From contig DATMLS010000045.1 of NCBI GenBank assembly GCA_035569995.1, positions 1-61,158 on the forward strand: DNA of 61,158 bases. The letters run 5' to 3'. Below the pieces are notes generated by a model. It did no database searches. It saw only the letters and a program-made list of their open reading frames with translations, and was not told where the DNA came from. Origin of the DNA: Opitutaceae bacterium (GTDB lineage Bacteria; Verrucomicrobiota; Verrucomicrobiia; Opitutales; Opitutaceae). Position numbers and translations under genes: made by a program. Shown piece by piece: positions 676 to 23,953 of this stretch. The stretch's first letter is position 1. Every line of letters begins with the position of its first letter.

Positions 676-753
<78 letters not shown>

Positions 754-3817: not shown

Positions 3818-3852
3818 ACATCAAAATCCAAAATCAAGAAAAGGAGATAAAC

Positions 3853-4437
3853 ATGTCAGACCTAAATTCAGATCCTGAATTGAAAGCAATTGACCAGGTG
3901 ATCCAAGCCCTCGGCTCGCTCCAGCAAGACGCTCGTGAGCGAGTCGTCAGTTACGTGTTTCAACGGCTTGGCCTTTCAACACTAAATACATTTGCCCAAC
4001 CAACCCTTGAACAGCCGCCCCCACCGTCGTCGGTGACAGCGCTGCCAAGTTCGCCTCAACCTGCCGGGGGCGTGCATGATATTCGTAGCTTTAGAACCGC
4101 AAAGAGTCCAAAAACTGATAATGAAATGTCAGCTCTGGTGGCATACTACCTCAAACACCTAGCACCACCCGAAGAACGCAAGGATTCGATCGCGACTGCC
4201 GACATCGAAAAATACTTCGTTCAAGCAAATTACCCGCTTCCAAAACGACCGCGATTGACTCTGGGTAACGCGAAAAACGCGGGATACTTCGACCCGGCTG
4301 AACGTGGGTTCTTTAAATTGAATCCTGTTGGCCATAACCTAGTGGCGCACGGTCTTGGGAAAGATGGAGGCGATAGCGTGTCGAGCCGGATCAAGAAAAC
4401 GAGAAAGAGTGGGTCAAAGTCAAAGAAACGGAGTTAG
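3853..4437 (+). CDS. hypothetical protein with a basic C-terminal tail, between hsdR and hsdS
   Basis: ORF with a plausible RBS (aaggagataaacATG). Lower GC than hsdR. Its stop (TAG) abuts the ATG of the next ORF. No recognisable motif. Confidence 0.5.
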   Translation: MSDLNSDPELKAIDQVIQALGSLQQDARERVVSYVFQRLGLSTLNTFAQPTLEQPPPPSSVTALPSSPQPAGGVHDIRSFRTAKSPKTDNEMSALVAYYLKHLAPPEERKDSIATADIEKYFVQANYPLPKRPRLTLGNAKNAGYFDPAERGFFKLNPVGHNLVAHGLGKDGGDSVSSRIKKTRKSGSKSKKRS

Positions 4438-6514: not shown

Positions 6515-6520
6515 CTTAAT

Positions 6521-7837: not shown

Positions 7838-7841
7838 GCTT

Positions 7842-8936
7842 ATGATGAAAGACCGTGACCAAAAGCAAAAGGCGCTGAAACTCTCAGTCGCGAACCGGTG
7901 GTTCCCTCAACTTGAGGTGGATGTCCAGCCTGGCCGAGCATTGAAGGAGCGGGCCCCGCTCGTTACTGATCTCGACGTTTTCTCTTCCATTCCCGATCAG
8001 TTTAAGGGCTTCCGCTCGGTCGTGTTCGATTGCAAAACGAAGGCAAAGGAATCACCAGTCAATCGTGCGTTGTGGTTGGCCGGTGTTCTCGAAAGGCTAC
8101 AAGCAGACCAAGGTTTCTGCATCCTGAAGAAGGACCAGATTCAACTTGACCACTGTTTGATGGCGACACGCCTCAACGTTGTTCTACTGACTGAAGACGA
8201 GTTCGACCTCTACGCGAAAGTGACGTGCCCTCGCTACGGCGGTCCTCTCGGCAATGTCAGTGAGATGGATGCTTGGGAACAGCTCTTCTCAATCCCGTCC
8301 CGGTTCCCGAAACTGGATTCAGGCATCCAGTTCATTCGGTCGACATTTTGGATGGTAGATGACTCCGCTGAAGCGTGTCGAAGATGCCTCGCGTGCTTAA
8401 AAGGACTCCACCCCGAGATGGACCCGTCAAAGCCGGAACACATTGCTGTTTTTCTCGAGTTCTGCGCGGTGTTCGCGCGTTCGCTGGCGGTTGTAGTGTG
8501 CCAGATTTTCAAATCCTACATGCTTCCCGCGAAACAAACAGACCTCGCGGACGCATTACTAGTCATGCTTTACGGTGGACGCGAAGCTTACGAGCACCGG
8601 AATGAGCTTTTCAAACTAGTGAAGGGGAAAGGCACTGACCAAGTGCCGCCGGATTTGTCGCTTCCCGAGTGGGACCGCTTTCTCCAACTGGTAAGGCAAT
8701 GCTTGGATGCCCCGTTCGAAATACAACATGCGCCGTTGATACTTCGGGAAGCGGCATTCTCCGCGCTACGGGGAGACACAGCGAGGGCCTTTGCGAAGAC
8801 CTTGTGTGCGGAGTCACCTCAGGGTGCGCGATTTGCGCTGTTGATTCCAACATATTTGGGAAGAGCGGCAAAACTCCCGCCGGAATTCGAAAAGGCGGCA
8901 GACGAGATTCTTATACCTTTGATTCCCGTGAAATGA
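7842..8936 (+). CDS. hypothetical protein with a possible N-terminal PD-(D/E)xK nuclease-like motif
   Basis: LVTDLDVF...VVFDCKTK resembles a D...(D/E)xK motif. Co-oriented and tightly packed with 6521..7837. Located between hsdS and hsdM. Confidence 0.5.
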   Translation: MMKDRDQKQKALKLSVANRWFPQLEVDVQPGRALKERAPLVTDLDVFSSIPDQFKGFRSVVFDCKTKAKESPVNRALWLAGVLERLQADQGFCILKKDQIQLDHCLMATRLNVVLLTEDEFDLYAKVTCPRYGGPLGNVSEMDAWEQLFSIPSRFPKLDSGIQFIRSTFWMVDDSAEACRRCLACLKGLHPEMDPSKPEHIAVFLEFCAVFARSLAVVVCQIFKSYMLPAKQTDLADALLVMLYGGREAYEHRNELFKLVKGKGTDQVPPDLSLPEWDRFLQLVRQCLDAPFEIQHAPLILREAAFSALRGDTARAFAKTLCAESPQGARFALLIPTYLGRAAKLPPEFEKAADEILIPLIPVK

Positions 8937-9018
8937 GCAATCCCGCCGCCCTTGTCCAGAAACCCTGGCCCCCCCCATCTTTGCCTGACGGCTACGCAGG
9001 TCACGCTGCAACCCAATC

Positions 9019-10488
9019 ATGACCGCCCCCGCGCTAGTTCAGAAGCTATGGAATTACTGCAACATCCTGCGGGATGACGGGCTGTCTTATGGCGATTACG
9101 TCGAGCAACTTACGTTTCTGCTCTTCCTCAAGATGGCCGATGAGCAGAGCCGCGCGCCGTTCAATAAGCCGTCGCCCATCCCGAAGGGCTTCGGCTGGGA
9201 TGTGCTGGTGAAGATCGATGGCGATGATCTCGAAACACACTACCGTCACACGTTGGAGGAGCTCGGCAAGCGAGCCGGGATGCTCGGAATCATTTTCCGC
9301 AAGGCGCAGAACAAAATCCAAGACCCCGCCAAACTTCGCCGCCTCATCGCCGACCTGATCGACAAGGAAGAATGGTCCTCGCTCGAAGTCGATGTGAAGG
9401 GCGACGCCTATGAGGGCTTGCTCGAAAAGAACGCTGCCGACGTTAAGGGCGGTGCTGGCCAATACTTCACGCCTCGCGCACTCATCGCAGCAATGGTGGA
9501 CGTAATCGCCCCCCAGCCCGGCCAAACGATTTGCGATCCTGCCTGCGGCACTGGTGGCTTTCTCCTCGCCGCATACACGTATCTTTCCGATCCGAAAAAC
9601 AACCAACTCGACCGCGCACAAAAGAAAAAGCTCAAGACCGGCACGCTTTTCGGAATCGAGCTTGTGGACAGCGTCACGCGCCTCTGCGCGATGAACATGA
9701 TGCTGCACGGCATAGGCGGTGAGTCCGACACCATCGATCTGCCTGTCGTCACCAAGGACGCGCTTGCCGGCAAGCACGGCGAATATGATCTCGTCCTCGC
9801 CAATCCGCCCTTCGGAAAAAAGAGCAGCGTTACCATCACAAACGAAGAGGGCGAGGTCTCCAAGGAGTCGCTCGTCATCAACCGCGACGATTTCTGGGCG
9901 ACCACGAGCAACAAGCAGCTCAATTTCCTCCAGCACATCTTTACCATCCTCAAGCAGCACGGCCGAGCGGCCGTGGTATTGCCCGATAATGTTCTCTTCG
10001 AAGGTGGTGCTGGCGAGACCATCCGACGCCAGCTTCTCCAGCAAGCCGACGTCCACACGCTCCTTCGCCTGCCCACGGGAATTTTCTACGCGCAAGGCGT
10101 GAAAGCCAATGTGCTCTTCTTCGACCGTAAGCCCGCCGCCGACAAAAAGGCGTGGACGGAAAAACTTTGGATTTACGATCTCCGCACGAACAAACACTTC
10201 ACGCTCAAAGAAAATACGCTGAAGCGCACCGACCTCGACGACTTCGTGAAGTGCTTCAACGTCAAGGATCGCACGAAACGGAAGGAGTCCGAACGATTCA
10301 AAGCCTTCGCTTACGAAGAGCTCCTTAAGCGCGACAAAGTGAACCTGGACATCTTCTGGCTCAAGGATGACGCCCTTGAAGACAGTGCCAATCTACCCGC
10401 GCCTGGCATCATCGCCACCGACATCATCGCCGACCTCGAAGCCGCTCTGGAACAGTTTAGTGAAATAGAATCAGACCTGAAGGAGTAA
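9019..10488 (+). CDS. hsdM: type I R-M N6-adenine DNA methyltransferase subunit (HsdM)
   Basis: HsdM N-terminal helix domain. SAM-binding motif DPACGTGGFL. Catalytic motif LANPPFG. Confidence 0.9.
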   Translation: MTAPALVQKLWNYCNILRDDGLSYGDYVEQLTFLLFLKMADEQSRAPFNKPSPIPKGFGWDVLVKIDGDDLETHYRHTLEELGKRAGMLGIIFRKAQNKIQDPAKLRRLIADLIDKEEWSSLEVDVKGDAYEGLLEKNAADVKGGAGQYFTPRALIAAMVDVIAPQPGQTICDPACGTGGFLLAAYTYLSDPKNNQLDRAQKKKLKTGTLFGIELVDSVTRLCAMNMMLHGIGGESDTIDLPVVTKDALAGKHGEYDLVLANPPFGKKSSVTITNEEGEVSKESLVINRDDFWATTSNKQLNFLQHIFTILKQHGRAAVVLPDNVLFEGGAGETIRRQLLQQADVHTLLRLPTGIFYAQGVKANVLFFDRKPAADKKAWTEKLWIYDLRTNKHFTLKENTLKRTDLDDFVKCFNVKDRTKRKESERFKAFAYEELLKRDKVNLDIFWLKDDALEDSANLPAPGIIATDIIADLEAALEQFSEIESDLKE

Positions 10489-13149: not shown

Positions 13150-15114
13150 ATGGTCCTCCATCCATTTGCCGTTATTCGGCTACACCTCAGCCTCGCCGCG
13201 GTCGGCATTGGCCTAGCATTGACTAGTTGCCAACACGCCGTTCCTAAGCACGCGATGTTGCATCCACTTCCCATCACCGGCACTGGTCAGAATGATCAAC
13301 CGTCGTCACCTGCCGCTGGCAGCGGTGCCGACGAATCCGATCCGCACATATATTATATCGGATCTCAAAGCATCCTGACTTTTGATAAGCAGGGAACGCC
13401 AGGGGCTGGAACTCTTAATATTCCGGTTTATGGAAGTCATTTGTTCTCCACAATCCATAACAAAAATAATACCGATCAACCGCAAATAACCCTACAGATT
13501 ACAGGAACGGTGCCAATTTCCGAGGACGACTATGATTGGGACCGGTCTACGGATCTCACTGCACAGACTGAGGACGAGCAGTTAATCAAGATCCTGCCGT
13601 CCTATGTGAGTCGCCTCCACACCGGAGATCGGCTTGAAGTCGAAGTGGGCATTGGCAGGAGCTCGCAGGCGTACTATATGAGACGAACTTTCACGATGTA
13701 TGCTGTCGATGATTATCGCAAATTGTTGGCTGGGCGAGTGCCCATTGGCGACATAAATGCATTTCCCTTGCCTGATGAAGAGACGCGCTACCTTTTTGGC
13801 CCTACGATCACCAGTGAATACTACGTGGTGGAGCTAACTCTGAGGAATTCCGGTTCGCAAGACGAGCTGGTGAACATAGGGATGATTAGCGCCGATGGGA
13901 GCGCGATTGTTCAGCCGGATGGCACAGACAAGACACTCAAGCAGACCTATACGGTTCCAATTGAAATCCCGCCCCAGAGCCCCTTACAAGTATATGCAGT
14001 GCTTGACGGGCAGGGAGACAAACAATCACGTTCTTGGATTTTTCGAAGCCTTGAGTTCGTTGGGGCACTTGGCACTGCTGTGGTGACAAGCTACACTCAT
14101 ACGCCGGCAGATGTGGTCAAGGGTTTTACCCTTTTCACTGGAGTTGGCATTCCTGCCGGCGATAAGCTGTGGCCTGATCAATGGCCAAGATATAAGAGCA
14201 ATTTGGTCAACTTTAGCATGCCCGAATTGGTTAAAGTGCCCAAGCAATCAACGACCACCCCAAAATTCATATTCTTTTCCAAGAAGAATCTTGGGCTGTT
14301 AATATCTGATCCAACTTTGTTCAGAAATGGCTCCTGGTTTGGTCACCAATCGCTGGGTCCAATCAACGAAGCAACCTCCCCATCGGTACGTGTAGTCACC
14401 CTGGCCTTCGACAACCTCGACATTCCTTTTGAAATAATTACAAGCCCGGCGGTGGTCGATCTGCACGAAACCTTGAATCTCCTCCAGAGTGATTTGGCCT
14501 CTCATCTCGCACGCCTCCAAACAACGCAAAAACTGTGGAGCGCTGGCGCTCAATTCGCCGATGGCGTGGATTTCGCCACGCTCAAGGCGATCTCTCAAAA
14601 GCTTTCCGCTCTCCCCGGCAGAGATCCCTTGAAAGCCGTGCCCGAAACTGATGATCTGAAGCAGTCTGTTACCCAACTCAGCGTTCTAGCCGCTTACCTG
14701 GCGCAGGCCGGCAATCCCAAGAGCCCTTTGTTCACAAGCCTGCTCACGGACAAAAACCAACCCGTGGCAAGCTTGTCCGATTTGCTACCGCTACTCTCCG
14801 AAGTGAGTCTGCTTCAATTTCGCCTGTCTGCCGGCGCTGACGTCGGTCCCCTGCAGGAACGCGCGACGGCTATACAGAAGCAGGTGGACGCAAGTCGTGC
14901 TCTTTTTGAATTCCTAATGCAAGCGGCGACGATATTTGCGAGTCCAGATTTTACCAAAACGTTGGATAATTGGCCGACGAAAGCGGCGGATCTCAATAGC
15001 TCGTCCGCACATGATATGATGGTCACCGACTTTACCATCTTGCGCCGCGAGCGAACTTTCCAGGCATTACAAAATTTTGCGCCTGACGATTACAAGAAGA
15101 TAGTCGCTCCCTAG
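13150..15114 (+). CDS. large predicted lipoprotein of unknown function (654 aa)
   Basis: Signal peptide with a lipobox-like LALTSC. AT-rich relative to the rest of the window. Confidence 0.55.
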   Translation: MVLHPFAVIRLHLSLAAVGIGLALTSCQHAVPKHAMLHPLPITGTGQNDQPSSPAAGSGADESDPHIYYIGSQSILTFDKQGTPGAGTLNIPVYGSHLFSTIHNKNNTDQPQITLQITGTVPISEDDYDWDRSTDLTAQTEDEQLIKILPSYVSRLHTGDRLEVEVGIGRSSQAYYMRRTFTMYAVDDYRKLLAGRVPIGDINAFPLPDEETRYLFGPTITSEYYVVELTLRNSGSQDELVNIGMISADGSAIVQPDGTDKTLKQTYTVPIEIPPQSPLQVYAVLDGQGDKQSRSWIFRSLEFVGALGTAVVTSYTHTPADVVKGFTLFTGVGIPAGDKLWPDQWPRYKSNLVNFSMPELVKVPKQSTTTPKFIFFSKKNLGLLISDPTLFRNGSWFGHQSLGPINEATSPSVRVVTLAFDNLDIPFEIITSPAVVDLHETLNLLQSDLASHLARLQTTQKLWSAGAQFADGVDFATLKAISQKLSALPGRDPLKAVPETDDLKQSVTQLSVLAAYLAQAGNPKSPLFTSLLTDKNQPVASLSDLLPLLSEVSLLQFRLSAGADVGPLQERATAIQKQVDASRALFEFLMQAATIFASPDFTKTLDNWPTKAADLNSSSAHDMMVTDFTILRRERTFQALQNFAPDDYKKIVAP

Positions 15115-16057: not shown

Positions 16058-16104
16058 GCAAACTCCGTCCGCTGCGCTCCCGGAGTTTGCACAAGTGCGG
16101 CCCT
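16058..16104 (+). promoter_or_regulatory. candidate oriT: 10-bp inverted repeat followed by a MOBQ-like nic-site sequence
   Basis: GCAAACTCCG-(13 nt)-CGGAGTTTGC is immediately followed by ACAAGTGCGGCCCT, which resembles the RSF1010 nick region GTAAGTGCG|CCCT. It lies between the divergent mobC and mobA genes. Confidence 0.5.
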
Positions 16105-16227
16105 GCGGGCGGCGCGTGCGCTGCGGCGCACGTCTGCCATTGGCGCAAGCGCCTTGCGTTGCGCAAAAAAGTTTCTCACCCGCGCACCCGCGGGAAGTCT
16201 CGGAAAGCTGCTAGACTATGGTCTAGC

Positions 16228-17280
16228 ATGAGAAACTCTTTTCATTTGAACATGGCCGCGCACTCGCGTTCGCACGGCCACAGCGCAGCGGCCAAAGTGG
16301 CCTACGTCACTGCAAGTCGCGGACGCGACGTGTGGGTTGGCAAGACCCACGATTATTCGCGGAAGAAGGGCGTCACGCGCTCGGCATGCGTAAATTACGA
16401 AGGCACGCCAAAAGAGTTGGCGCGCTTGATGGATACAACCGAAACGCGCCGAAACTCGACTGTTTGCCGGGAATTGATTTTTGCTCTTCCGCACGGATTG
16501 CCGGAGGAACAGCGCTGGGAACTTGCTTTCCGTCTCGGCGAGACAGTCGCCACGCGTTACGGCGTAGCCGGCGTTGTTGCATTGCACGAACCATCCGCCA
16601 AGGGCGACCGGAGAAATGACCACGCGCACATCGTCTTCTCTACGCGAAAAATAGAGGACGGCGAGCTCACTACGAAGACACGTGTGCTCGACGACCGAAA
16701 GACCGGCGCGGGTGAAGTGAAATGGCTGCGCGCTGAAAGCGCGCGACTGATAGGGGAAGCGCTCGCTGAGGTTGGACGCACCTTAGAGATCCCCGCGTGG
16801 GATCACCGCAGCTATGCCGACCGCGGAATTGATCAGCCAACAACGCGGCATGAAGGCGTGCGCGGTCGAGCACTCGCGCGCAAAGGCCGCGCCACAGTTT
16901 TTTCCCGAGACAACCAAGTAATACGCTCGGCCCTTGAGGAAACGAGAAAGTTAGAAAGCGAAATCGCAAATGAATACGTTAACAACATCATCGCAGCTCG
17001 CCGACCTACAAAAGGAAAACCACGAGCTGAAAGACACATTGAAGAACTTGCGCGAGAACCTAGCAAAGCTCGCGGGGGACAGCCCGTTCGTGAAAGTGGG
17101 ACCATGGCTCTTCCTCTTCACGGACATTCGGAGGATCAAAGCAAACGAGCAGGGCCGCCTGGACATACTCAACGAAACCGAGGCCTTCGGCGAGGTCTTG
17201 GTGCAAGACTTGGAAAACTTGGTCTCAGCGCACTATCGAAAGGCGCGAGAGAACTCGGACTAACACCTGACACGTTCTAA
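16228..17280 (+). CDS. mobA: MobA/MobL-family relaxase (MOBQ)
   Basis: N-terminus FHLNMAAHSRSHGHSAAAKVAYVTASRG matches the relaxase motif I region. Histidine triad motif NDHAHIVFSTR. The start is taken at the internal ATG at 16228; the upstream extension of ORF 16087 is improbable. Confidence 0.8.
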   Translation: MRNSFHLNMAAHSRSHGHSAAAKVAYVTASRGRDVWVGKTHDYSRKKGVTRSACVNYEGTPKELARLMDTTETRRNSTVCRELIFALPHGLPEEQRWELAFRLGETVATRYGVAGVVALHEPSAKGDRRNDHAHIVFSTRKIEDGELTTKTRVLDDRKTGAGEVKWLRAESARLIGEALAEVGRTLEIPAWDHRSYADRGIDQPTTRHEGVRGRALARKGRATVFSRDNQVIRSALEETRKLESEIANEYVNNIIAARRPTKGKPRAERHIEELAREPSKARGGQPVRESGTMALPLHGHSEDQSKRAGPPGHTQRNRGLRRGLGARLGKLGLSALSKGARELGLTPDTF

Positions 17281-17305: not shown

Positions 17306-20149
17306 CTATTTGGAAGAATCTTCAACCGAGCTCTTTTGCCGCTGTGATTGAATCTGTTTTGCCACATTACGAACAGACTTATCGAAGTCCCTACAAAAAT
17401 TACGAGCTTTAGATTCGGTAATCATAGGATATGAAACAATACTCACCAACTCCTTCCAATGCTCATCAACAAAAGCAGAATGATTTGCGCGAGCTTCGTA
17501 ACGCTCAAGGAAACCATCCGCTGTATCGGGTGTGAGTCGCGACATCTTGTCATAATGGATAGAAATGCGATTCAATACAACGTTGCCGTTTTCTATGAGA
17601 CGTCGAAACGTCTCATCTGCAGAATTGGTTTTTTCAACAACCTGTGCAACAGGCCAATGTTCGGTGATTAACCTTAAAGCTGAAATACGAATATAGCACT
17701 TCAACAGACGATCAATTTCCGTTTCTCTCGAAAAGGCTGGTACTAACGTCGCTTGCAGTTGTTCCTCGGATAGCAATACACATGCGAGAGTATAAAGATA
17801 AAAATGCAGCCCATTCACCAAGTACAATTTTCTCTGATAAGCGTATGTGAACGCTTCTTCGTCGTGCTCCACCTGCAGTTTAGGAACTTTTTGAAACCGC
17901 TCCCAGACTTCGGGCGTCACGCACCGGGCGACCGCGTTGCCATAAGTTTCTGAGTGAACATAGATTGACATCTCGCCTTCGGCGGTCGCATCGACTCGAG
18001 GTATAAAACCAGAGCAAATGCAATCCGCACATACGGGAATGATGTCCAAATTTAAACCAGCTTGATCACATTGATTGGCAAAACAAGCTACAGCCACGGA
18101 ATCATTTTCGAATGCGAGCAGAGGTCGTTGCGGAGAACCGTGGGGGAAAAGACTTGCGTAGTCCGCAACGAACGACTTGTCGGGCTTGCCTAAAGATGTC
18201 GAAAAACTGCCCGCTGCGTTGAAGAATTGAGCCAAGAGTTTCGTGTCCCGTGACAACACTAAAACTGAACTGCCCTTTTTCCATGCACTAACCACTTTTT
18301 GGATAGTTTTCTTGGGAGCTCTTCCGTCGAGCAGGTACAACGGAATCGTTTCATCAAACCCGACATGCAATATCACGCGTTCGCCAACACGCCCAAGATT
18401 AAGTAATGGCTGAAAACGTGAATTTGGCCGTTGTATCATGCATACGCCAAAACTCTTATGCAGCGTAGGTAGACAAAATCCTAAACCGAGACGGCCGGCA
18501 CCAACATGAACGTGTAATTTGGCGCGCCCAGGTCTTGGTCTGGTCGAATGCGTTGGAGCAGGTGTAAACGGCCGCCCGTCACCGATAATGTTAAGTCTGT
18601 CCAATCTGAAATTTACATCTCGCGTCAGCAATTGACTCCCAACAGCAGGGTGAAAGATAAAGTAACGTGACTGCGGAAATTGAAATTCTTCGTTGAAAGC
18701 ATGTTCCCCAGGGATCTCGAATCGCTGAACCAAGCCTCGCGCTCCATGATCTTCCTTCATAGTGTAACCAATAAGCCCGCGGCTTATTAAATAGCAAAAT
18801 GGGTGCTTGTGACCGGTGGTAGCTGTTACGCTCCGTGCGATGCGGCGAACCTCAGCCAAAGTCAGTACATTTGCGTGAGCGTGGAGAAATAATTCACGCG
18901 CGACTTTGTAATTCCAAAATGGAATAATTTCTTTTTGGAAATAGTTAAATCCCTTTGAGGCAACCGTATGAATAAGTTGGCGAATTCGTTCTGGCGTGCG
19001 CTGAACGGCTTCTTCGTGATAAATTATCTGTCCAAAAGTAACGACCTCTCTCGGGCGGCCAAATGTGTGTCGGAGAATAAAATCAAAGATATCCTCGGAT
19101 ACGGGATCGCCGTTTGGCGACCGAACAAATGCGTGTTCCAAGGTGGGGTAGCCAAAGAATTGCGTGATGGGGTCTGCAGCGTCCGGTTTCGCTAAACGCG
19201 TTCGATCTGTTCGCGTGATATTGTGGACGAATATCTGACGGAGCTTCGCAGGAGTATATTCAATTTCGCATACATAGTCGCTGTCTTGGTGCGACGCAGT
19301 GCGGCGTGCGGCGTAGGCTTCATGACGTATGGCCGCGAAAATCCTGATGTGGTGATTTACATGGTGAATTTGTTTTATAGCTTCGAAAAGACCCACTTGG
19401 GCATTCATCCAGATCGCTGGATCGAGGTTGCCTTGAGTCATATCACGAGCTTGGGAAAATTCGTAAAAAGTATAGCCAACATGCGGGGACAAAGCCTCGT
19501 CGACGCTATCAATGAACATTGCGACGGGACGATCCAGGTTCTCAATGCGCGCCGTTAACTCCTGATTTTTTAGGCGTAAGAGACGGTTAAGGGCACCTCG
19601 ATTGCGGAGAATCTCAGGCAGAACACTTGCGACACGGTTCGCTTCACCAAAGAATTCCGTAAGGGCGCTCGGTAAATCCGTGCCGAGAGATCGCAGAATC
19701 ACATATTCGAGACAAATTCGCCAAACGGATACCCAAATATTCGGTTGAGTAAATCCTGAGAGGTCTTCGTCCGAGAATGAAACATTTGCGGCGTCGAGAC
19801 GTTCGACGAGTTCTGTGTTTGGTATAAAATGCGTTCCCGTTTTTTTTTCGCGATACATTGCGCTTTTGAGCCGAATCAAGAGCGTTTTTCCAGTGCCACG
19901 AGCGCCAGAAACCAAAAATTTTGGGTTGTGCCAGTCGTTATCAAGGAACGCTTCAATAGGCCCAGTCGTAATTACGTCATCGAGCGAAATCTCCCCGGTT
20001 TCCTTTATCTCATCAGCTTGGGAGACCCAAGGTTGACCCCTTAAAGGTTTTGAGTCTGAAACGGCACGCGCATTCATTGGCAATTGCAGTGTGGGGCTGG
20101 ATCGTAAACCTTTGATAGACCGCATGACCCGCAGTTGTTGTTTAGTCAA
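17306..20149 (-). CDS. 947-aa fusion protein: N-terminal P-loop NTPase plus C-terminal mannitol-dehydrogenase-family (MtlD-like) Rossmann domain
   Basis: Walker A LVSGARGTGKTLL and Walker B-like AMFIDSVDE in the N-terminal half. The C-terminal half has HVHVGAGRLGLGF (compare MtlD HFGAGNIGRGF) and QRKLYLVNGLHFY (compare MtlD ERKLFTLNTGHA). The gene is AT-rich. Confidence 0.7.
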   Translation of the reverse strand: MTKQQLRVMRSIKGLRSSPTLQLPMNARAVSDSKPLRGQPWVSQADEIKETGEISLDDVITTGPIEAFLDNDWHNPKFLVSGARGTGKTLLIRLKSAMYREKKTGTHFIPNTELVERLDAANVSFSDEDLSGFTQPNIWVSVWRICLEYVILRSLGTDLPSALTEFFGEANRVASVLPEILRNRGALNRLLRLKNQELTARIENLDRPVAMFIDSVDEALSPHVGYTFYEFSQARDMTQGNLDPAIWMNAQVGLFEAIKQIHHVNHHIRIFAAIRHEAYAARRTASHQDSDYVCEIEYTPAKLRQIFVHNITRTDRTRLAKPDAADPITQFFGYPTLEHAFVRSPNGDPVSEDIFDFILRHTFGRPREVVTFGQIIYHEEAVQRTPERIRQLIHTVASKGFNYFQKEIIPFWNYKVARELFLHAHANVLTLAEVRRIARSVTATTGHKHPFCYLISRGLIGYTMKEDHGARGLVQRFEIPGEHAFNEEFQFPQSRYFIFHPAVGSQLLTRDVNFRLDRLNIIGDGRPFTPAPTHSTRPRPGRAKLHVHVGAGRLGLGFCLPTLHKSFGVCMIQRPNSRFQPLLNLGRVGERVILHVGFDETIPLYLLDGRAPKKTIQKVVSAWKKGSSVLVLSRDTKLLAQFFNAAGSFSTSLGKPDKSFVADYASLFPHGSPQRPLLAFENDSVAVACFANQCDQAGLNLDIIPVCADCICSGFIPRVDATAEGEMSIYVHSETYGNAVARCVTPEVWERFQKVPKLQVEHDEEAFTYAYQRKLYLVNGLHFYLYTLACVLLSEEQLQATLVPAFSRETEIDRLLKCYIRISALRLITEHWPVAQVVEKTNSADETFRRLIENGNVVLNRISIHYDKMSRLTPDTADGFLERYEARANHSAFVDEHWKELVSIVSYPMITESKARNFCRDFDKSVRNVAKQIQSQRQKSSVEDSSK

Positions 20150-20284: not shown

Positions 20285-21643
20285 TCAGCCCTCGATAGCC
20301 CGCAACTCCGTCCCCAAGGGCAATTGCACTTCGATGCGTTTTTTCTTGTCCACATAGTGCGCCGACGTGGTCCGAATATCCCTGTGCCCGAGGTGTTGGC
20401 GCGCGGCCTCAATCCCAAACGTCGAGGCGATGAGTGAGCCGCTTTCCTTACGCAGCGCGTGGATTGCCTTCACCTGGTGCACGCCTTTCTTTCGCAGCCA
20501 TGCATTAAGATCACGCCACGTGCAATCGCAGCGGTAGTAATCGTAAGTTGCGAACAGGTTGGGTTCCGCGCCGTCCAACACAAATTCCGACGTGCTGCCT
20601 TTTTTGAACGAGCCGAGAACGTTGAGGGCTTCCGGGGCTAGGTCGATATTGCGCTGACTCTCTTCTGTCTTTGGCTCAAAGTAGGGAGTGCGGCGGACGT
20701 GAATCTCTCCCTTTTTGAAGTCGATTTGTTCCCACGTCAGCAAGTCCGCCTCTTTGCGCCGCAATCCTGCCCACAGGCACAGAAAGAGCGCGAGGTATTG
20801 CTGGGGATGCGTCTGCCTCAATTCGAGCGCTGCGCAGGCCAGCAACCATTCAGGGTTGACCTCGGAATGGTAACGCTGCGGGCCGGGGTCTTTTAGCTTC
20901 ACGCCGTCAAACGGATTGGACGGCAGCTTCACCTTGAGCACGCTCACCACGTCCGTCGTAAAGAGGGCACGTGAGCAGCGCAGGTAGGAGGCCGCTGACC
21001 GTTCCGCCGACTTGCGTTTAATTGGGTCGATCCCCGCCTTAGCAACGTAATGGTTGCGCCATGCGTTGACGGTGTCCGGTGTGAGCACGTCCAGCGGCTG
21101 CTTGTCCACCTTGGCAAGCCATGCCTTTCGGCCACCGTTCATGTAATCGTATTTTGCTCGCTTGGCCCGGCCTCTCACCCCGGCTTCCAGCTTGGCCACG
21201 TCAGAGACCATTTTACGCAGCTTTACGGCATACCTGCGCACCGTCATCGGCTTTAGATGGCTGCGGGCCTGCACATCGGCCAGAAATTCGCCCACGGTGC
21301 AAACGTCGGCCTTGTCGGTTGAGCTGGGCTTAAACTTGGCTAGCGTCGCGGCCCAGCCCGCCGAGATGAGTGAAAGGTAAATGTCGCGGGCTTTGATGAT
21401 CGCGATGGACTGGTTGGCCGTGTCGAGACAGAACCACGCTTCGCGGCCCTCGTGAAACATCCTGACGTAATACTCCGGTGGGGTGTATTTCTCCCCGTCC
21501 CGACCTCTGAACGTGCAGCGTTTGATGCGTGCTTTCCAGTAATCCTGATGCGTCTTGGCGGCGCGTGAGACCGGAATGTAGGCATTTGACATTCCGGTTA
21601 CATTCCGGTTTTGGCTGTCCTCAAAAGTTTTCATTTGTCTCAA
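20285..21643 (-). CDS. int: tyrosine-type site-specific recombinase / integrase
   Basis: C-terminal catalytic motif HALRKESGS...LGHRDIRTTSAHYVD (R-H-R-Y family). Adjacent to attR. The start may be the internal Met at ~21592, which would place the ACATTCCGG repeats in its 5' leader. Confidence 0.9.
   Translation of the reverse strand: MRQMKTFEDSQNRNVTGMSNAYIPVSRAAKTHQDYWKARIKRCTFRGRDGEKYTPPEYYVRMFHEGREAWFCLDTANQSIAIIKARDIYLSLISAGWAATLAKFKPSSTDKADVCTVGEFLADVQARSHLKPMTVRRYAVKLRKMVSDVAKLEAGVRGRAKRAKYDYMNGGRKAWLAKVDKQPLDVLTPDTVNAWRNHYVAKAGIDPIKRKSAERSAASYLRCSRALFTTDVVSVLKVKLPSNPFDGVKLKDPGPQRYHSEVNPEWLLACAALELRQTHPQQYLALFLCLWAGLRRKEADLLTWEQIDFKKGEIHVRRTPYFEPKTEESQRNIDLAPEALNVLGSFKKGSTSEFVLDGAEPNLFATYDYYRCDCTWRDLNAWLRKKGVHQVKAIHALRKESGSLIASTFGIEAARQHLGHRDIRTTSAHYVDKKKRIEVQLPLGTELRAIEG
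21571..21612 (+). promoter_or_regulatory. ACATTCCGG repeat cluster at the integrase 5' end: one inverted copy plus two direct copies
   Basis: CCGGAATGTAGG (inverted) is followed by ACATTCCGGTTACATTCCGGTTTT, identical to 796..819 at the other end of the island. Confidence 0.45.
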
Positions 21644-21733: not shown

Positions 21734-21782
21734 ATACAAAATAACTGTTAATCACTTGGTCACTGGTTCGATCCCAGCCCGG
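21734..21782 (+). repeat. attR: truncated tRNA-Asn 3' half (right copy of the direct repeat)
   Basis: A 49-bp copy of 705..753 with 1 mismatch. It lacks the 5' half of the tRNA, so it is not a functional tRNA gene. Confidence 0.8.
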
Positions 21783-21953
21783 GCAGCCAGTCCAGCCAAT
21801 TATCCAGGCTGTTCTGGCCGTATTTTTCTAACCAATCTGCACGGTTGGAAAAAGCCTTTGATATTGTAAGTGATTTCCAAAGGGAATTTTGCTTAAATCA
21901 CTCACGTTATTTATCCGAAGCGCAGAGGCCAGTAAATCGAAGTTAATCCCCCC

Positions 21954-22517
21954 ATGAACCTCCTTAGCACGTTGTCCACTGACTGGGCAGGATTCTTGCC
22001 CGGCCAAAAGGTATTCTACGGAATCGGCTGCCTTGCCGCATTCCTGATCGTGATCCTGGGATTTTTCCAGCTCGTGGGAATGGAAATTCATACGGATATC
22101 GACCACCCCGACCACAACGGCGCCAGCCTGTTCTCCGTCAAACCGATCACGGGCTTCTTCTTTGGTTTTGGCTGGGCCGGTGGCTACTGCACGGGCCAGA
22201 TGTCCTTCTTCCCGGCGTTCGGCCTGGCCCTGCTCGCTGGCCTGTGCGCCATGTTTATTATCTGGGGAATCGTGCGCACGTTTGTGCACTTCCAGAATGA
22301 CGGCAGCATGAAAATGGAAAGCGCCGTCGGCAAAGAGGGCATCGTCTACACGACGATCGACCCTGCAGTTGGAGGACAAATCCAAATTACCCTCAACACC
22401 GGCCTGGAAACACTCCCGGCCGTCACCAGGGAAACAGAACCCATTTCTACAGGGAAAACGGTAACCGTCATCCGGCTTGATGGACCGAACCTTCTCGTCG
22501 AAACCAAGAAAACATGA
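21954..22517 (+). CDS. NfeD/YqiJ-like membrane protein
   Basis: N-terminal transmembrane segments plus a C-terminal beta-rich soluble domain. Its stop overlaps the start of the downstream SPFH/flotillin gene, the typical NfeD-flotillin pairing. Confidence 0.6.
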   Translation: MNLLSTLSTDWAGFLPGQKVFYGIGCLAAFLIVILGFFQLVGMEIHTDIDHPDHNGASLFSVKPITGFFFGFGWAGGYCTGQMSFFPAFGLALLAGLCAMFIIWGIVRTFVHFQNDGSMKMESAVGKEGIVYTTIDPAVGGQIQITLNTGLETLPAVTRETEPISTGKTVTVIRLDGPNLLVETKKT

Positions 22518-23953
22518 ACCTCCTCGATATCGTCTTTGCTGGCGTGGGAATTTTATTCCTCGTCATCGTCATCGCGACCTGCCTCGGCCGCTTCAAAATG
22601 TGCCCGCCCGACAAGGTTCTGGTCGTGTTCGGCAAAACAGGGTCGGGGCAAAGCTCCCAGTGTATCAACGGTGGCGCGAAATTCATTGTCCCCATCTTCC
22701 AAAGCTACGGCTTCATGTCCCTGCGGCCGCTCAATATCAAGATCGAGCTGGAAGACGCCCTCTCATCGCAGAAAATTCGCGTGAGCGTCCCATCGAACTT
22801 CACCATCGCCATCTCGAAAAAACCCGAGCTGATGATGGCCGCAGCCAACCGGCTGCTGGGCAAATCGGATGAGGATATCAGCCAGCTCGCCCAGGAAATC
22901 ATTACCGGCCAGATGCGCATCGTCATCGCCACGATGACGATTGAGGAGATCAACTCCGACCGCGAGAAACTCATCGGCGGAATTTCGACCGGTGTTGAAC
23001 GGGAGCTCGAAAAACTGGGTCTCGAACTCATCAACTGCAATATCACGGACATCCAGGACAAGTCCGGTTACATTGATGCGCTGGGCAAGGAAGCCGCCGC
23101 CAAGGCCATCAATGACGCCCAGATCCGCGTCGCCCAGGAAAACCAGCGCGGAACGATCGGCCAGGCTGAAGCGGTTCGGGATCAAAAGATCAAAGTCGCC
23201 GAAGCCGAAGCCCTCCAGACCGTCGGCCAAAACAAAGCGCAAATGGACATCGCGGACTCCAACGCCGCGCTGGCCAAACGCCAGGCCGAAGCGTCGAAAG
23301 TTGCCCAATCGGCCAAACTCGTCGCCGACGCCGAGGCTGTCGCCGCCGGTTACGCCGCCCAAAAGACGGCCGAAGACGTGCGCGCCACCAGGGAACAAGC
23401 CTCGCTTAGCGCAACCGAAGTTTCCCGCGCCAACGTCGACAAACAAAAGGCCATCGTCAACGCCGAGGCCGTCGCGGCCGTTGCCAGGACGGAAGCCGAG
23501 GGTAGGGCTGCCGCCACTCTCACCACCGCCACCGCCGAAGGCAAAGCCACCCAGGCCCGCCTCGAGGGTGAAGCCGCCGGCCAAAAGGCATTGCTCCTGG
23601 GCAAAGCCGAAGGCTTCAAGGAACTGGTTGCCGCCTCAACCGGCCCCGAGGCCATCAGCCTCATTGTGGCGCAACAGCTCACCGACATCGTCCGCCTGAC
23701 CAGTGACTCGGTTTCAAAACTAAGGATCGACAAGATCGTCGTCATGGATGGCGGCTCTGGCTCCGGCCCGGCCGGCGTCGAGAAATTGGTGGAGAATCTC
23801 TTCAAAGGCACCATCCCGATCCGCGAAATCATGAACAGCCTGGGAGTGAAACTTCCCGGTCTCCTCGGAACTGAAGTAGCCACAACAACCGCAACGGCAA
23901 CTCCTCCTCCGGCCAAGCCCTCGGGCGGTCCGGGTGCTCCAAAGACGAGCTAA
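22514..23953 (+). CDS. flotillin-like SPFH (band 7) domain protein (YqiK-like)
   Basis: N-terminal TM helix and SPFH domain, followed by a long Ala/Glu-rich coiled-coil (AEAEA...) region. Confidence 0.8.
   Translation: MNLLDIVFAGVGILFLVIVIATCLGRFKMCPPDKVLVVFGKTGSGQSSQCINGGAKFIVPIFQSYGFMSLRPLNIKIELEDALSSQKIRVSVPSNFTIAISKKPELMMAAANRLLGKSDEDISQLAQEIITGQMRIVIATMTIEEINSDREKLIGGISTGVERELEKLGLELINCNITDIQDKSGYIDALGKEAAAKAINDAQIRVAQENQRGTIGQAEAVRDQKIKVAEAEALQTVGQNKAQMDIADSNAALAKRQAEASKVAQSAKLVADAEAVAAGYAAQKTAEDVRATREQASLSATEVSRANVDKQKAIVNAEAVAAVARTEAEGRAAATLTTATAEGKATQARLEGEAAGQKALLLGKAEGFKELVAASTGPEAISLIVAQQLTDIVRLTSDSVSKLRIDKIVVMDGGSGSGPAGVEKLVENLFKGTIPIREIMNSLGVKLPGLLGTEVATTTATATPPPAKPSGGPGAPKTS

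What the first reader, a model, noticed from the sequence alone, without database searches (positions are those of the whole stretch)
17306..20149. 947-aa fusion of a P-loop NTPase with a mannitol-dehydrogenase-family Rossmann domain, AT-rich, next to the integrase
The N-terminal half has a clear Walker A (GARGTGKT) and a Walker B-like AMFIDSVDE. The C-terminal half matches the two most diagnostic MtlD-family motifs: the dinucleotide-binding HVHVGAGRLGLGF (compare HFGAGNIGRGF) and the catalytic-loop QRKLYLVNGLHFY (compare ERKLFTLNTGHA). I do not recognise an ATPase fused to a polyol-dehydrogenase-like NAD(H)-binding domain as a described architecture. It sits in the most AT-rich patch of the island, a classic defense-gene location. 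An NAD-binding effector coupled to an NTPase sensor is a plausible but unproven anti-phage design.
Basis: partly seen in the sequence, partly recalled or inferred. Interest (0 to 1): 0.75.

Follow-up and report, generated by a model that had tools for sequence, protein, structure and literature searches.

The report
ATPase switch fused to mannitol-phosphate dehydrogenase
A gene on a mobile defence island fuses an ATP-driven switch of the kind used in bacterial immune proteins to an apparently intact sugar-phosphate dehydrogenase; this looks like an undescribed anti-phage design that would act on central sugar metabolism, but it is untested.

Summary
One 923-aa protein (most likely ATG at 20077; the 947-aa TTG start is unlikely) has an N-terminal P-loop ATPase and a C-terminal mannitol-1-phosphate-dehydrogenase (M1PDH)-family domain.

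- **N-terminal half:** an ORC/Cdc6-type AAA+ module related to, but below the cut-off of, the NCBIfam Sll1717 family.
- **Location:** the gene is the most AT-rich stretch of the window. It is the first cargo gene beside the integrase of a 21-kb tRNA-Asn-integrated mobilizable island that also carries a type I R-M system.

About 45 distant homologues share the architecture. The same ATPase module elsewhere carries a class III cyclase (next to a Pycsar PycTM effector in one locus) or a bSEFIR domain in the same C-terminal slot. The M1PDH-like domain is also fused to the adaptor EAD11. Relatives sit beside CBASS-like, ABC-3C/Lamassu-like and PD-T7-4 genes and inside a Mu-like prophage.

No PADLOC model or searched paper covers it. 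The best reading is a single-gene conflict system with a new metabolic effector. The chemistry (fructose-6-P to toxic mannitol-1-P, or a metabolite drain) is inferred only.

The parts
17306..20077 (-). Coding sequence of the 923-aa ATPase-M1PDH-like fusion protein (stop codon 17306-17308; preferred start ATG at 20077; alternative upstream starts ATG 20125 and TTG 20149)
   Evidence: ORF list and translation. Identical to public protein HXB02035.1, 'ATP-binding protein [Opitutaceae bacterium]'. Homologues align from about residue 15.
18563..19972 (-). N-terminal AAA+ (ORC/Cdc6/'Arch_ATPase'-like, STAND-like) ATPase module, residues ~36-505
19880..19909 (-). Walker A / P-loop, SGARGTGKTL (residues 57-66)
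   Evidence: K present in 35/36 and T in 36/36 same-architecture homologues.
19496..19525 (-). Walker B, VAMFIDSVDE (residues 185-194)
   Evidence: D190 and D193 each conserved in 34/36.
19046..19072 (-). Near-invariant RHTFGRPRE motif (residues 336-344), resembling the GxP motif of STAND/ORC-type ATPases
   Evidence: R336 35/36, H337 34/36, R341 33/36, P342 35/36, R343 34/36. The reading as a GxP motif is inference.
17309..18523 (-). C-terminal M1PDH-family (polyol-specific long-chain dehydrogenase/reductase) domain, residues 519-923: Rossmann half plus helical half
18476..18514 (-). Dinucleotide-binding loop HVHVGAGRLGLGF (residues 522-534)
   Evidence: G526 and G528 in 92/92; G531 and G533 in 87/92.
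18104..18112 (-). F-E-N motif (residues 656-658). The Asn corresponds to the oxyanion-hole Asn119 of SaM1PDH.
   Evidence: E657 91/92, N658 92/92. Residue roles from PMC6623548.
18011..18025 (-). D-C-I-C-S (residues 685-689), the family's 'D-R-I-C' motif (canonical MtlD: V-D-R-I-V). This protein has an unusual Cys in place of Arg.
   Evidence: D685 92/92; position 686 is R in 80, K in 9 and C in 2 of 92; C688 88/92.
17795..17833 (-). Catalytic loop RKLYLVNGLHFYL (residues 749-761): K750-x4-N755-x2-H758
   Evidence: K 92/92, N 91/92, H 90/92. These correspond to K200, N205 and H208 of SaM1PDH.
17489..17569 (-). R837...D843-x3-R847 followed by R859-Y-x-x-R863: the cofactor/phosphate-binding region of the helical domain
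   Evidence: R837 92/92, D843 91/92, R847 91/92. The canonical Arg-rich motif is only partly kept (motif defined in PMC9168451).
17278..17304 (.). Perfect 10-bp GC-rich hairpin in the 25-bp gap between the convergent relaxase and target genes; probable bidirectional terminator
20285..21643 (-). Tyrosine integrase of the island, directly upstream on the same strand
   Evidence: Pfam Phage_integrase E=4.6e-11.
16087..17280 (+). MobA/MobL (MobQ-type) relaxase, convergent with the target gene
   Evidence: Pfam MobA_MobL 1.6e-26; NCBIfam MobQ 3.1e-35.
705..753 (+). attL: 3' half of tRNA-Asn (676-750) plus 3 nt; left copy of the 49-bp direct repeat
21744..21792 (+). attR: right copy of the 49-bp direct repeat (1 mismatch); it bounds the ~21-kb element

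Best explanation
**What it is.** The gene encodes a stand-alone, single-gene conflict (most likely anti-phage) protein. It is carried as compositionally foreign cargo on a tRNA-Asn integrative mobilizable island.

**Proposed mechanism.**
- An N-terminal ORC/Cdc6-type AAA+ (STAND-like) ATPase module acts as the nucleotide-dependent switch or sensor.
- This module controls a C-terminal, catalytically intact enzyme of the mannitol-1-phosphate dehydrogenase family, which is the output.
- On activation, presumably by ATP-dependent conformational change or oligomerisation after an invader cue, the enzyme would reduce an abundant ketose phosphate with NAD(P)H. The archetypal reaction is fructose-6-phosphate to mannitol-1-phosphate.
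- That would drain central carbon and reducing equivalents and build up a toxic sugar-alcohol phosphate, so the infected cell stops growing.

**Shown here:** domain identities, fold, conservation of catalytic residues, island boundaries, the modular partners of both domains, and the contexts of homologues.

**Inferred:** the defence role (my estimate ~0.6), that the enzyme is the effector rather than a sensor (~0.5), and the specific F6P-to-M1P toxicity chemistry (~0.25).
For: **Domain identity and integrity**
- Family profile against PDB: E=3.6e-14 (5jnm) and 1.7e-8 (3h2z).
- G-loop, EN, D685, K750, N755, H758, R837, D843 and R847 are conserved in 90-92 of 92 relatives.
- The ATPase Walker A/B, R251 and RHTxGRPRE motifs are conserved in 33-36 of 36.

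**Both halves are modular in conflict-type ways**
- The same ~500-aa ATPase module, ending in the same junction motif N-[IV]-[IV]-G-x-x-R-x-[WF], is followed elsewhere by a class III cyclase.
- In one such locus (L006) a PycTM Pycsar effector gene starts 19 bp downstream.
- In a Butyrivibrio plasmid protein the module is followed by a bSEFIR domain.
- In P0004-6 it is preceded by kinase and TIR domains.
- The M1PDH-like domain is fused to EAD11 in P0009 and P0011. EADs are adaptors that couple enzymatic effector or signalling domains to core NTPase systems (PMC7159879).

**Context**
- In this window it is cargo of an island with a type I R-M system, an Mrr-like nuclease and an Argonaute-associated-nuclease-like gene, bounded by a 49-bp att repeat.
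- The gene's GC3 is 0.446 against 0.55-0.80 for neighbouring genes.
- Homologues lie next to SLATT_4 + SMODS, CTD7 + MC3 + LmuB_C + CoiA, a PD-T7-4 homologue plus a ParE toxin, a DDE transposase, and inside a Mu-like prophage as an opposite-strand insert.
- No partner gene recurs, and a hairpin terminator closes the gene. Both fit a single-gene system.

**Plausibility of the toxic chemistry**
- The closest annotated sequence relatives are eukaryotic M1PDHs (Eimeria tenella, BLASTP E=1e-7).
- Phosphatase-dead AbMtlD variants accumulate M1P and abolish growth of A. baumannii (PMC9168451).
- One bacterial homologue has ATPase + M1PDH-like + HAD phosphatase (P0051), i.e. a complete F6P-to-mannitol module under the same switch.
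Against: - There is no experimental evidence for defence, for enzyme activity or for any trigger.
- All homologues are rare metagenomic singletons. Only about seven contexts were informative, and several others showed nothing telling.
- No sensor domain is evident beyond the ATPase module.
- The canonical Arg-rich phosphate-binding motif of M1PDHs is only partly kept, so the substrate may not be F6P/M1P.
- This protein has Cys686 where 89 of 92 relatives have Arg or Lys, which might alter or weaken activity.
- The P0051 variant carries the phosphatase that would detoxify M1P. This argues against M1P toxicity as the universal killing principle.
- Half of the wider domain family consists of ordinary eukaryotic metabolic M1PDHs.
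Confidence: 0.5

Rival explanations
1. Regulated metabolic enzyme. The protein is an ATP-gated mannitol-1-phosphate dehydrogenase that supplies mannitol or M1P for osmoprotection, redox balance or carbon storage. Mobile elements would carry it as an accessory 'fitness' gene, not as an immune gene.
For: - The C-terminal domain is a catalytically intact M1PDH-family enzyme.
- Its nearest annotated relatives are metabolic M1PDHs of algae and apicomplexans, several with HAD M1Pase fusions.
- Acinetobacter uses an M1PDH/phosphatase fusion for osmoadaptation (PMC9168451).
- P0051 has ATPase + M1PDH-like + HAD.
Against: - The ATPase module's other partners are immune-type: cyclase + PycTM, bSEFIR, kinase-TIR.
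- The EAD11 fusions of the dehydrogenase domain point the same way.
- No sugar transport or catabolic genes lie next to any homologue examined. Contexts are defence or mobile-element genes.
- The family is extremely rare, patchy and fast-diverging, unlike housekeeping osmolyte pathways.
Confidence: 0.15
2. Signal generator or modifier. The dehydrogenase domain does not kill by itself. It makes or destroys a small-molecule signal (a polyol phosphate, or an oxidised or reduced nucleotide-sugar or ADP-ribose-like compound) that is read by a separate effector. This would parallel the cyclase that occupies the same slot in Pycsar-like relatives.
For: - The equivalent C-terminal slot holds a signalling cyclase, with a separate PycTM effector gene in L006.
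- EADs recruit signalling as well as effector enzymes.
- P0002 is followed, 30 bp downstream on the same strand, by SLATT_4 and SMODS genes.
- The phosphate-binding motif is remodelled relative to canonical M1PDH, which leaves room for a different substrate.
Against: - In this window no candidate effector gene is co-oriented with the target. A terminator hairpin and a convergent relaxase follow it.
- No partner gene recurs across contexts.
- SLATT + SMODS already form a complete minimal CBASS-type pair on their own.
Confidence: 0.12
3. Sensor, not effector. The M1PDH-like domain acts as a ligand-binding sensor for NAD(H) or a sugar phosphate whose level changes on infection. The ATPase would be the output, for example through ATP hydrolysis or depletion, or by remodelling a target.
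For: - In classical STAND proteins the C-terminal region is the sensor.
- The protein has no other obvious sensor domain.
- Dinucleotide-binding domains can serve as metabolic sensors (general knowledge).
Against: - The same slot is occupied by output enzymes (cyclase, bSEFIR) in relatives.
- The catalytic Lys, Asn and His and the oxyanion-hole Asn are conserved in 90-92 of 92. That is expected for an enzyme and not required of a mere binder.
- EAD11-dehydrogenase fusions lack any ATPase.
- HAD phosphatase fusions imply turnover of a phosphorylated product.
Confidence: 0.08
4. Decaying or neutral cargo. The fusion in this genome is an inactive relic (note the R686C substitution) hitch-hiking on the island without present function.
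For: - Cys686 replaces the Arg or Lys found in 89 of 92 relatives.
- The gene has strongly foreign composition.
- The protein cluster has only 2 members.
Against: - The 2.8-kb ORF is intact, and every other catalytic and nucleotide-binding residue is preserved.
- The AlphaFold model is confident and well packed (pLDDT 91, pTM 0.78).
- One other family member also has Cys at this position.
Confidence: 0.07

Closest known systems
Mannitol-1-phosphate 5-dehydrogenase (MtlD/M1PDH; polyol-specific long-chain dehydrogenase/reductase family; PDB 5jnm, 3h2z, 7ocn)
   Same: - Shared motifs: GxGxxGxG loop, EN, D-[RC]-I, K-x4-N-x2-H, R-F...D-x3-R.
- Direct BLASTP similarity to the protein annotated as Eimeria tenella M1PDH.
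   Different: - Only 13-16% identity to the solved bacterial enzymes.
- Below Pfam's threshold.
- Extra family-specific His522 and Cys688.
- The Arg-rich phosphate motif is remodelled.
- It is fused behind a 500-aa AAA+ ATPase and lies in a defence island rather than an mtl operon.
Algal/apicomplexan M1PDH and M1PDH-M1Pase (HAD) fusion proteins (Ectocarpus, Micromonas, Eimeria)
   Same: - Same sub-family of the dehydrogenase domain. It scores far better than canonical MtlD against our profile: 90-125 bits against ~21 bits.
- Shared Q-R...W/F beta2 motif.
- A HAD phosphatase is fused C-terminally in some bacterial ATPase versions too (P0051).
   Different: - Those are eukaryotic metabolic enzymes with transit peptides or algal N-terminal extensions.
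- They form the other half of the NJ tree.
- They have no ATPase, no EAD domain and no mobile-element context.
Single-protein NTPase-effector defence proteins (Avs/bNACHT-type STANDs; bSEFIR proteins)
   Same: - Logic: a P-loop NTPase switch covalently joined to an enzymatic output, encoded as one gene in defence islands.
- The ATPase module of this protein is homologous to one that carries a bSEFIR domain.
   Different: - No NACHT or NB-ARC Pfam signature.
- The output is C-terminal rather than N-terminal, and there is no repeat-type sensor.
- No PADLOC model matches.
- The effector chemistry (sugar-phosphate oxidoreductase) has no precedent among the catalogued effectors I could search.
Pycsar (cyclase + PycTM/TIR effector)
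   Same: Close homologues of the ATPase module (27-31% identity over ~490 residues) are fused to a class III cyclase. In one locus a PycTM gene follows.
   Different: The window protein has no cyclase and no adjacent effector gene. A dehydrogenase occupies the cyclase's position.
NCBIfam NF047389 'P-loop ATPase, Sll1717 family'
   Same: Best named match of the N-terminal half: E=1.1e-17, residues 69-394 against profile positions 27-347 of 454.
   Different: - The score of 64.4 is below the curated cut-off of 75.
- The family name carries no known function, and no paper in the library mentions it.

Membership tests
Polyol-specific long-chain dehydrogenase/reductase (MtlD / mannitol dehydrogenase) superfamily | N-terminal Rossmann domain with a GxGxxGxG dinucleotide-binding loop | tested here: met
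   HVHVGAGRLGLGF at residues 522-534. G526 and G528 conserved in 92/92 relatives.
Polyol-specific long-chain dehydrogenase/reductase (MtlD / mannitol dehydrogenase) superfamily | Catalytic Lys plus two oxyanion-hole Asn, and His (EN motif and K-x4-N-x2-H) | tested here: met
   N658, K750, N755 and H758 are present and 90-92/92 conserved. Roles as defined for SaM1PDH and PfM2DH in PMC6623548.
Polyol-specific long-chain dehydrogenase/reductase (MtlD / mannitol dehydrogenase) superfamily | Two-domain fold (Rossmann + helical) superimposable on solved members | tested here: met
   [not shown]
Polyol-specific long-chain dehydrogenase/reductase (MtlD / mannitol dehydrogenase) superfamily | Passes the Pfam PF01232/PF08125 gathering thresholds | tested here: not met
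   No hit for this protein. Only 7 of 35 stand-alone relatives give sub-threshold PF01232 hits. A family profile nevertheless reaches E=3.6e-14 against solved M1PDH. It is therefore a divergent sub-family outside Pfam's model.
Mannitol-1-phosphate 5-dehydrogenase (EC 1.1.1.17) specifically | D-x3-R and R-V-x-R plus the Arg-rich motif R-x3-R-K-x4-[E/D]-R that binds the phosphate of F6P/M1P (PMC9168451) | tested here: inconclusive
   D843-x3-R847 is invariant. The second Arg of R-V-x-R is absent. The Arg-rich stretch is replaced by a 6-10-aa loop followed by (K/R)859-[YF]-x-x-R863.
Mannitol-1-phosphate 5-dehydrogenase (EC 1.1.1.17) specifically | NAD(P)H-dependent interconversion of fructose-6-phosphate and mannitol-1-phosphate | not testable with these tools
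   Needs an enzyme assay. The nearest annotated relative is the Eimeria tenella M1PDH (27% identity, E=1e-7).
NCBIfam NF047389, P-loop ATPase Sll1717 family | Whole-protein score at or above the curated cut-off (75 bits) | tested here: not met
   64.4 bits, E=1.1e-17. Related to the family, but not a member by NCBI's criterion.
STAND NTPases (NACHT / NB-ARC / AP-ATPase type) | P-loop NTPase core followed by helical and winged-helix domains, with intact Walker A/B and a GxP-type motif | tested here: inconclusive
   [not shown]
STAND NTPases (NACHT / NB-ARC / AP-ATPase type) | C-terminal superstructure-forming repeat sensor (TPR/WD40/LRR) | tested here: not met
   The whole C-terminal half is the dehydrogenase domain. 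No repeats appear in the Pfam results or in the model.
Catalogued anti-phage defence systems (PADLOC-DB v2.0.0) | Significant match to any system model | tested here: not met
   The best hit is RdrA, E=0.0089 over 44 residues around the P-loop. Five relatives give no hits.
EAD-coupled effectors of NTP-dependent conflict systems (Kaur et al. 2020) | Effector or signalling enzyme fused to an effector-associated adaptor domain | tested here: not met
   The window protein has no EAD. Homologues of its dehydrogenase domain, P0009 and P0011, carry EAD11 (E=9e-10 and 4e-14). This speaks to the role of the domain, not to membership of this protein.
Pycsar | Class III nucleotidyl cyclase plus a cyclic-nucleotide-activated effector | tested here: not met
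   The window protein has no cyclase domain and no adjacent effector. Only paralogous ATPase-cyclase proteins have them; L006 has the PycTM gene and L023 is a cyclase fusion.

The most novel reading that the evidence does not exclude
M1PDH-family oxidoreductases would be a previously unrecognised class of prokaryotic immune effector. An AAA+/STAND-like switch (or an EAD11 adaptor) would unleash a sugar-phosphate dehydrogenase that aborts infection by rerouting central carbon. The routes would be fructose-6-phosphate to toxic mannitol-1-phosphate or, with the HAD partner, an irreversible drain to mannitol. That would be immunity by sugar-phosphate stress rather than by NAD+, ATP or nucleotide depletion, or by nucleic-acid or membrane attack.
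Probability: 0.3. Interest if true: 0.85.

Novelty: new variant of a known kind. Interest (0 to 1): 0.72.

Why it matters
Known bacterial immune effectors degrade nucleic acids, punch membranes, or deplete NAD+, ATP or dNTPs. I could find none reported to act through a glycolytic sugar phosphate.

If this fusion is a defence protein, it adds a new effector chemistry. It would link sugar-phosphate toxicity, a long-known physiological phenomenon, to abortive infection.

It also defines an uncharacterised ATPase module (Sll1717-like) as a general switch that can drive a cyclase, a SEFIR domain, a TIR-kinase or a dehydrogenase. That module is a handle for finding further outputs.

The hypothesis is directly testable with one gene, two point mutants and a metabolite measurement. 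If it is instead a regulated metabolic enzyme, it would still be an unusual ATP-gated M1PDH spread by mobile elements.

Tried and rejected
1. **First AlphaFold run.** A 3-sequence alignment gave pLDDT 39 and was unusable. It was replaced by a 96-sequence alignment.
2. **NADP(H) idea.** The conserved Q549-R550 at the end of beta2 replaces the acidic residue of canonical MtlD, so I considered NADP(H) specificity. I dropped the idea because the eukaryotic M1PDH clade (Eimeria) has the same motif, so it does not separate the fused proteins from ordinary M1PDHs. The cofactor is left as NAD(P)H.
3. **HAD-fused and "cluster A" relatives.** I first took them for further conflict-type fusions. They turned out to be algal and apicomplexan metabolic M1PDHs and are not counted as defence evidence, except the bacterial P0051.
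4. **Database limits.**
   - The search for related loci with the divergent alignment A4 failed because no conserved stretch was found.
   - The indexed search with profile A6 found only 2 proteins.
   - The afdb50 fold library was unavailable.
5. **Literature.** Searches for Sll1717, for mannitol dehydrogenase with phage defence, anti-phage or STAND, and for mannitol-1-phosphate dehydrogenase with defence island returned nothing. The Kaur 2020 text and held supplement, the 2021 follow-up and the 2026 STAND preprint do not mention such an effector.
6. **DUF4145 near P0010.** It is not detectably similar to the PD-T7-4-like gene near P0019, so the DUF4145 recurrence is weak.
7. **PADLOC RdrA hit.** The E=0.009 match covers only the P-loop and was dismissed.
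8. **Viral contigs.** They hold the ATPase-cyclase paralogue, not the dehydrogenase version.

Full report
**1. The observation**

The window contains an uninterrupted minus-strand ORF at 17306..20149.
- The TTG at 20149 is probably not the start. The public record for the identical protein (HXB02035.1, 'ATP-binding protein [Opitutaceae bacterium]') begins at the ATG at 20077 and has 923 aa. Distant homologues only begin to align at about residue 15 of that product. All residue numbers below use this 923-aa numbering.
- The gene is the most AT-rich stretch of the window. Its GC is 0.472 and GC3 is 0.446. The rest of the island is at 0.547, the chromosome outside at 0.585, and neighbouring genes have GC3 of 0.55-0.80.

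**2. The C-terminal half is a genuine M1PDH-family enzyme domain**

- *Single-sequence searches are blind to it.* Pfam finds nothing there. phmmer against PDB finds nothing relevant.
- *Profiles find it.* One of the two full-length homologues from the indexed search gives a sub-threshold PF01232 hit. A three-sequence profile already aligns colinearly with S. aureus M1PDH.
- *The family is sizeable.* The exhaustive search of 1.84 billion cluster representatives with that profile found 532 proteins at E≤1e-3, 245 at E≤1e-10 and 63 at E≤1e-30.
- *Sequence significance.* A 35-sequence profile hits 5jnm at E=3.6e-14, 3h2z at 1.7e-8 and a mannitol 2-dehydrogenase at 5e-4. The alignment runs from the glycine loop through EN, D-R-I and K-x4-N-x2-H into the R-F...D...R-V motif of the helical domain.
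- *Fold.* With a 96-sequence alignment AlphaFold gives a full-length model of mean pLDDT 91 and pTM 0.78.
  - Foldseek ranks the two solved M1PDHs first (E=2.7e-9 and 4.2e-9), followed by fructuronate reductase and mannitol 2-dehydrogenase.
- *Catalytic residues.* Residues equivalent to the catalytic triad and substrate-binding residues defined for SaM1PDH and PfM2DH (PMC6623548) are kept in 90-92 of 92 aligned relatives. These are N658, K750, N755, H758, R837, D843 and R847, together with G526, G528 and D685.
[quoted passage not shown] It belongs to a divergent branch that Pfam does not capture: only 7 of 35 stand-alone relatives give even sub-threshold hits.

**3. Which branch**

- Part of the family found consists of proteins with a C-terminal HAD phosphatase. 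Another part has an N-terminal extension bearing a repeated YRxxYRxFRxGxxxGAxGE motif or a transit-peptide-like start.
- These are eukaryotic. P0082 is from the red alga Rhodella. Its relatives come from Vitrella, Bigelowiella, Amorphochlora, Cyclospora and Eimeria, and include the proteins annotated as M1PDH of Eimeria tenella and Cyclospora.
- The literature describes algal M1PDHs with N-terminal extensions, and a Micromonas M1PDH with a C-terminal HAD M1Pase that makes mannitol in E. coli.
- Our domain aligns directly with the Eimeria protein: 27% identity over 239 residues, E=1e-7.
- An NJ ordering of 156 domains places the ATPase-fused, EAD11-fused and some stand-alone proteins in one half and the eukaryotic enzymes in the other.
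- The nearest annotated relatives are therefore F6P/M1P oxidoreductases.
- The phosphate-binding signature defined for AbMtlD is D-x3-R, R-V-x-R and R-x3-R-K-x4-[E/D]-R (PMC9168451). It is only partly retained. D843-x3-R847 is invariant. The following stretch is a longer loop that ends in (K/R)-[YF]-x-x-R.
- Substrate identity is therefore plausible but not established.
- This particular protein has Cys686 where 89 of 92 relatives have Arg or Lys.

**4. The N-terminal half**

- NCBIfam gives 'P-loop ATPase, Sll1717 family' at E=1.1e-17, below its cut-off (64.4 against 75 bits). Pfam gives only sub-threshold AAA_16.
- Across 36 same-architecture homologues the following are nearly invariant: Walker A (GK-T), Walker B (D-x-x-D-E), R251 and the motif R-H-T-x-G-R-P-R-E.
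- The ATPase is therefore expected to be active.

**5. Both halves are modular, and in a telling way**

- *Same architecture.* About 45 of the best 150 hits have the same ~900-aa architecture.
- *Cyclase in the same slot.* A scan of species-representative genomes with the full-length alignment found six proteins with the same ATPase module (residues 15-504) but a ~200-aa different C-terminus. That C-terminus is a class III nucleotidyl cyclase (profile against PDB: Ma1120 5e-6, Rv1900c 9e-5).
- *Pycsar link.* In one of these loci a PycTM Pycsar effector gene follows 19 bp downstream (Pfam 7.8e-11, PADLOC 1.6e-16). An IMG/VR viral contig carries another ATPase-cyclase fusion.
- *bSEFIR in the same slot.* On a Butyrivibrio plasmid the module is followed by a domain matching PADLOC bSEFIR at 2e-27.
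- *N-terminal partners.* In P0004-6 the module is preceded by a protein kinase and a TIR domain.
- *Fixed junction.* The junction motif N-[IV]-[IV]-G-x-x-R-x-[WF] immediately precedes the variable domain in both the dehydrogenase and the cyclase versions. A fixed switch module therefore exchanges output domains.
- *EAD11 fusions.* The M1PDH-like domain is fused to EAD11 in two proteins (E=9e-10 and 4e-14). [quoted passage not shown]
- *Complete pathway under the switch.* One bacterial protein, P0051, has ATPase + M1PDH-like + HAD phosphatase.

**6. Genomic setting**

- *The island.* tRNA-Asn lies at 676-750. Its 3' 46 nt plus 3 nt are repeated at 21744-21792 (49 bp, one mismatch). This delimits a ~21-kb integrated element.
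- *Its cargo.*
  - hsdR, hsdS and hsdM, interrupted by a pPIWI/Argonaute-associated-nuclease-like gene and unknown ORFs.
  - An Mrr-like nuclease.
  - RadC.
  - An unknown 654-aa ORF.
  - A MobQ-type relaxase.
  - The target gene.
  - The tyrosine integrase.
- *Transcript end.* The target is convergent with the relaxase. A perfect 10-bp hairpin fills the 25-bp gap between them.
- *Contexts of homologues.*

| Homologue | Neighbours |
|---|---|
| P0002 | SLATT_4 + SMODS directly downstream |
| P0016 | CoiA, CTD7, MC3 and LmuB_C (ABC-3C/Lamassu-type) |
| P0010 | Inside a Mu-like prophage (transposase, GemA, Gam, M15 peptidase) as an opposite-strand insert, with a DUF4145 gene nearby |
| P0019 (stand-alone domain) | PD-T7-4 homologue (E=1.7e-83) 12 bp downstream, plus a ParE/YoeB toxin |
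| P0015 | DDE transposase |
| Others | Uninformative or too short |

- No partner gene recurs.

**7. How it most likely works**

*Shown.* The protein is a covalent pair of an apparently active AAA+ ATPase and an apparently active M1PDH-family oxidoreductase. It is carried by mobile elements among defence genes, and each half has immune-type alternative partners.

*Inferred.*
- The ATPase is the invader-responsive switch.
- The dehydrogenase is the output.
- The output is metabolic: reduction of F6P (or a related ketose phosphate) to a polyol phosphate at the expense of NAD(P)H.

*Precedent for toxicity.* Phosphatase-dead AbMtlD variants accumulate M1P and abolish growth of A. baumannii. Loss of M1PDH in S. 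aureus causes mannitol-dependent swelling and cytolysis.

*Weak points.*
- The trigger and the sensor surface are unknown.
- The Arg-rich phosphate motif is remodelled.
- P0051 carries the detoxifying phosphatase. In that variant the harm would have to come from draining F6P and NAD(P)H, or from mannitol itself.

*My estimates.*

| Claim | Probability |
|---|---|
| Conflict or defence role | ~0.6 |
| The dehydrogenase is the effector | ~0.5 |
| F6P-to-M1P chemistry | ~0.25 |

**8. Rivals**

- An ATP-gated metabolic or osmoprotective M1PDH.
- A signal-making enzyme that needs a separate effector.
- A ligand-sensing pseudo-enzyme.
- Decaying cargo.

Each is set out with its evidence in the rivals section. 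None fits the partner-domain pattern as well, and none is excluded.

**9. Comparison and novelty**

- *What it works like.* It works like single-gene NTPase-effector immune proteins.
- *Membership by domain.* It is a divergent PSLDR/M1PDH-family member fused to an Sll1717-like AAA+ module.
- *Families it does not belong to.* It is not a member of any PADLOC-catalogued system. It is not a member of Pycsar. It does not meet the criteria for NACHT or NB-ARC STANDs.
- *Prior description.* I found none. The library does not cover all journals, and newer defence catalogues could not be searched.
- *Rating.* I rate it a new variant of a known kind: a known logic with a new effector chemistry.

Noticed in passing
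window 796-819 and 21589-21612 (with an inverted partial copy near 21570-21581): A 24-bp sequence, ACATTCCGGTTACATTCCGGTTTT (itself a tandem of ACATTCCGGTT), occurs just inside both ends of the island: next to attL, and within or upstream of the 5' end of the integrase gene. These may be arm-type integrase binding sites.
   Followed up: partly
L006 9998-12103 and 12122-12721; also L004, L005, L007-L009 and the IMG/VR contig L023 9944-12028: A Pycsar-like variant. A class III cyclase is fused behind the same ~500-aa Sll1717-like AAA+ ATPase. In L006 a PycTM effector gene follows 19 bp downstream. PADLOC has no model for the ATPase-cyclase protein.
   Followed up: partly
L002 3743-4612 (-) and L005 5481-6239 (+): A protein-L-isoaspartate O-methyltransferase (PCMT) gene lies next to two different members of the ATPase family (one dehydrogenase version, one cyclase version). 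This could be chance or an accessory gene.
   Followed up: no
window 1022-10488: The type I R-M operon (hsdR 1022-3817, hsdS 5240-6514, hsdM 9019-10488) is interrupted by extra genes. These are a 194-aa ORF, a pPIWI/Argonaute-associated-nuclease-like gene (4438-5274; Pfam pP_pnuc_1, PADLOC Aga_Nuclease) and two ORFs with no hits (6521-7837, 7842-8936).
   Followed up: partly
window 13150-15114 (+): A 654-aa ORF upstream of the relaxase has no significant match in Pfam, NCBIfam or PADLOC. It is unknown island cargo.
   Followed up: partly
L003 1521-2144; L017 5277-6059; L018 6035-6748: DUF4145-domain genes sit near M1PDH-like family genes in two independent contexts. The one next to stand-alone P0019 is a near-full-length PD-T7-4 homologue (E=1.7e-83). 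The one near P0010 in the Mu-like prophage is not detectably similar to it.
   Followed up: partly
proteins P0060, P0071, P0076, P0079, P0085, P0097, P0125, P0136, P0039: A cluster of proteins has an uncharacterised ~310-390-aa, mostly K/N-rich N-terminal domain (no Pfam hit in the members scanned) in front of the M1PDH-like domain. Some also have a C-terminal HAD phosphatase. Organism and role are unknown. They group with the prokaryote-like half of the tree.
   Followed up: no
window 18020-18022 (codon of Cys686): This protein has Cys at the position where 80 of 92 relatives have Arg and 9 have Lys (D-R-I-C motif). Only one other relative shares the Cys. The consequence for activity is unknown. 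The family-specific His522 and Cys688, which canonical MtlD lacks, are also unexplained.
   Followed up: no
window 22514-23953 (+): Immediately outside attR the chromosome encodes a flotillin/SPFH (Band_7) protein. It is preceded by an overlapping ORF (21954-22517) that looks like a membrane protein from its hydrophobic sequence. This is ordinary host context that marks the island's outer boundary.
   Followed up: no
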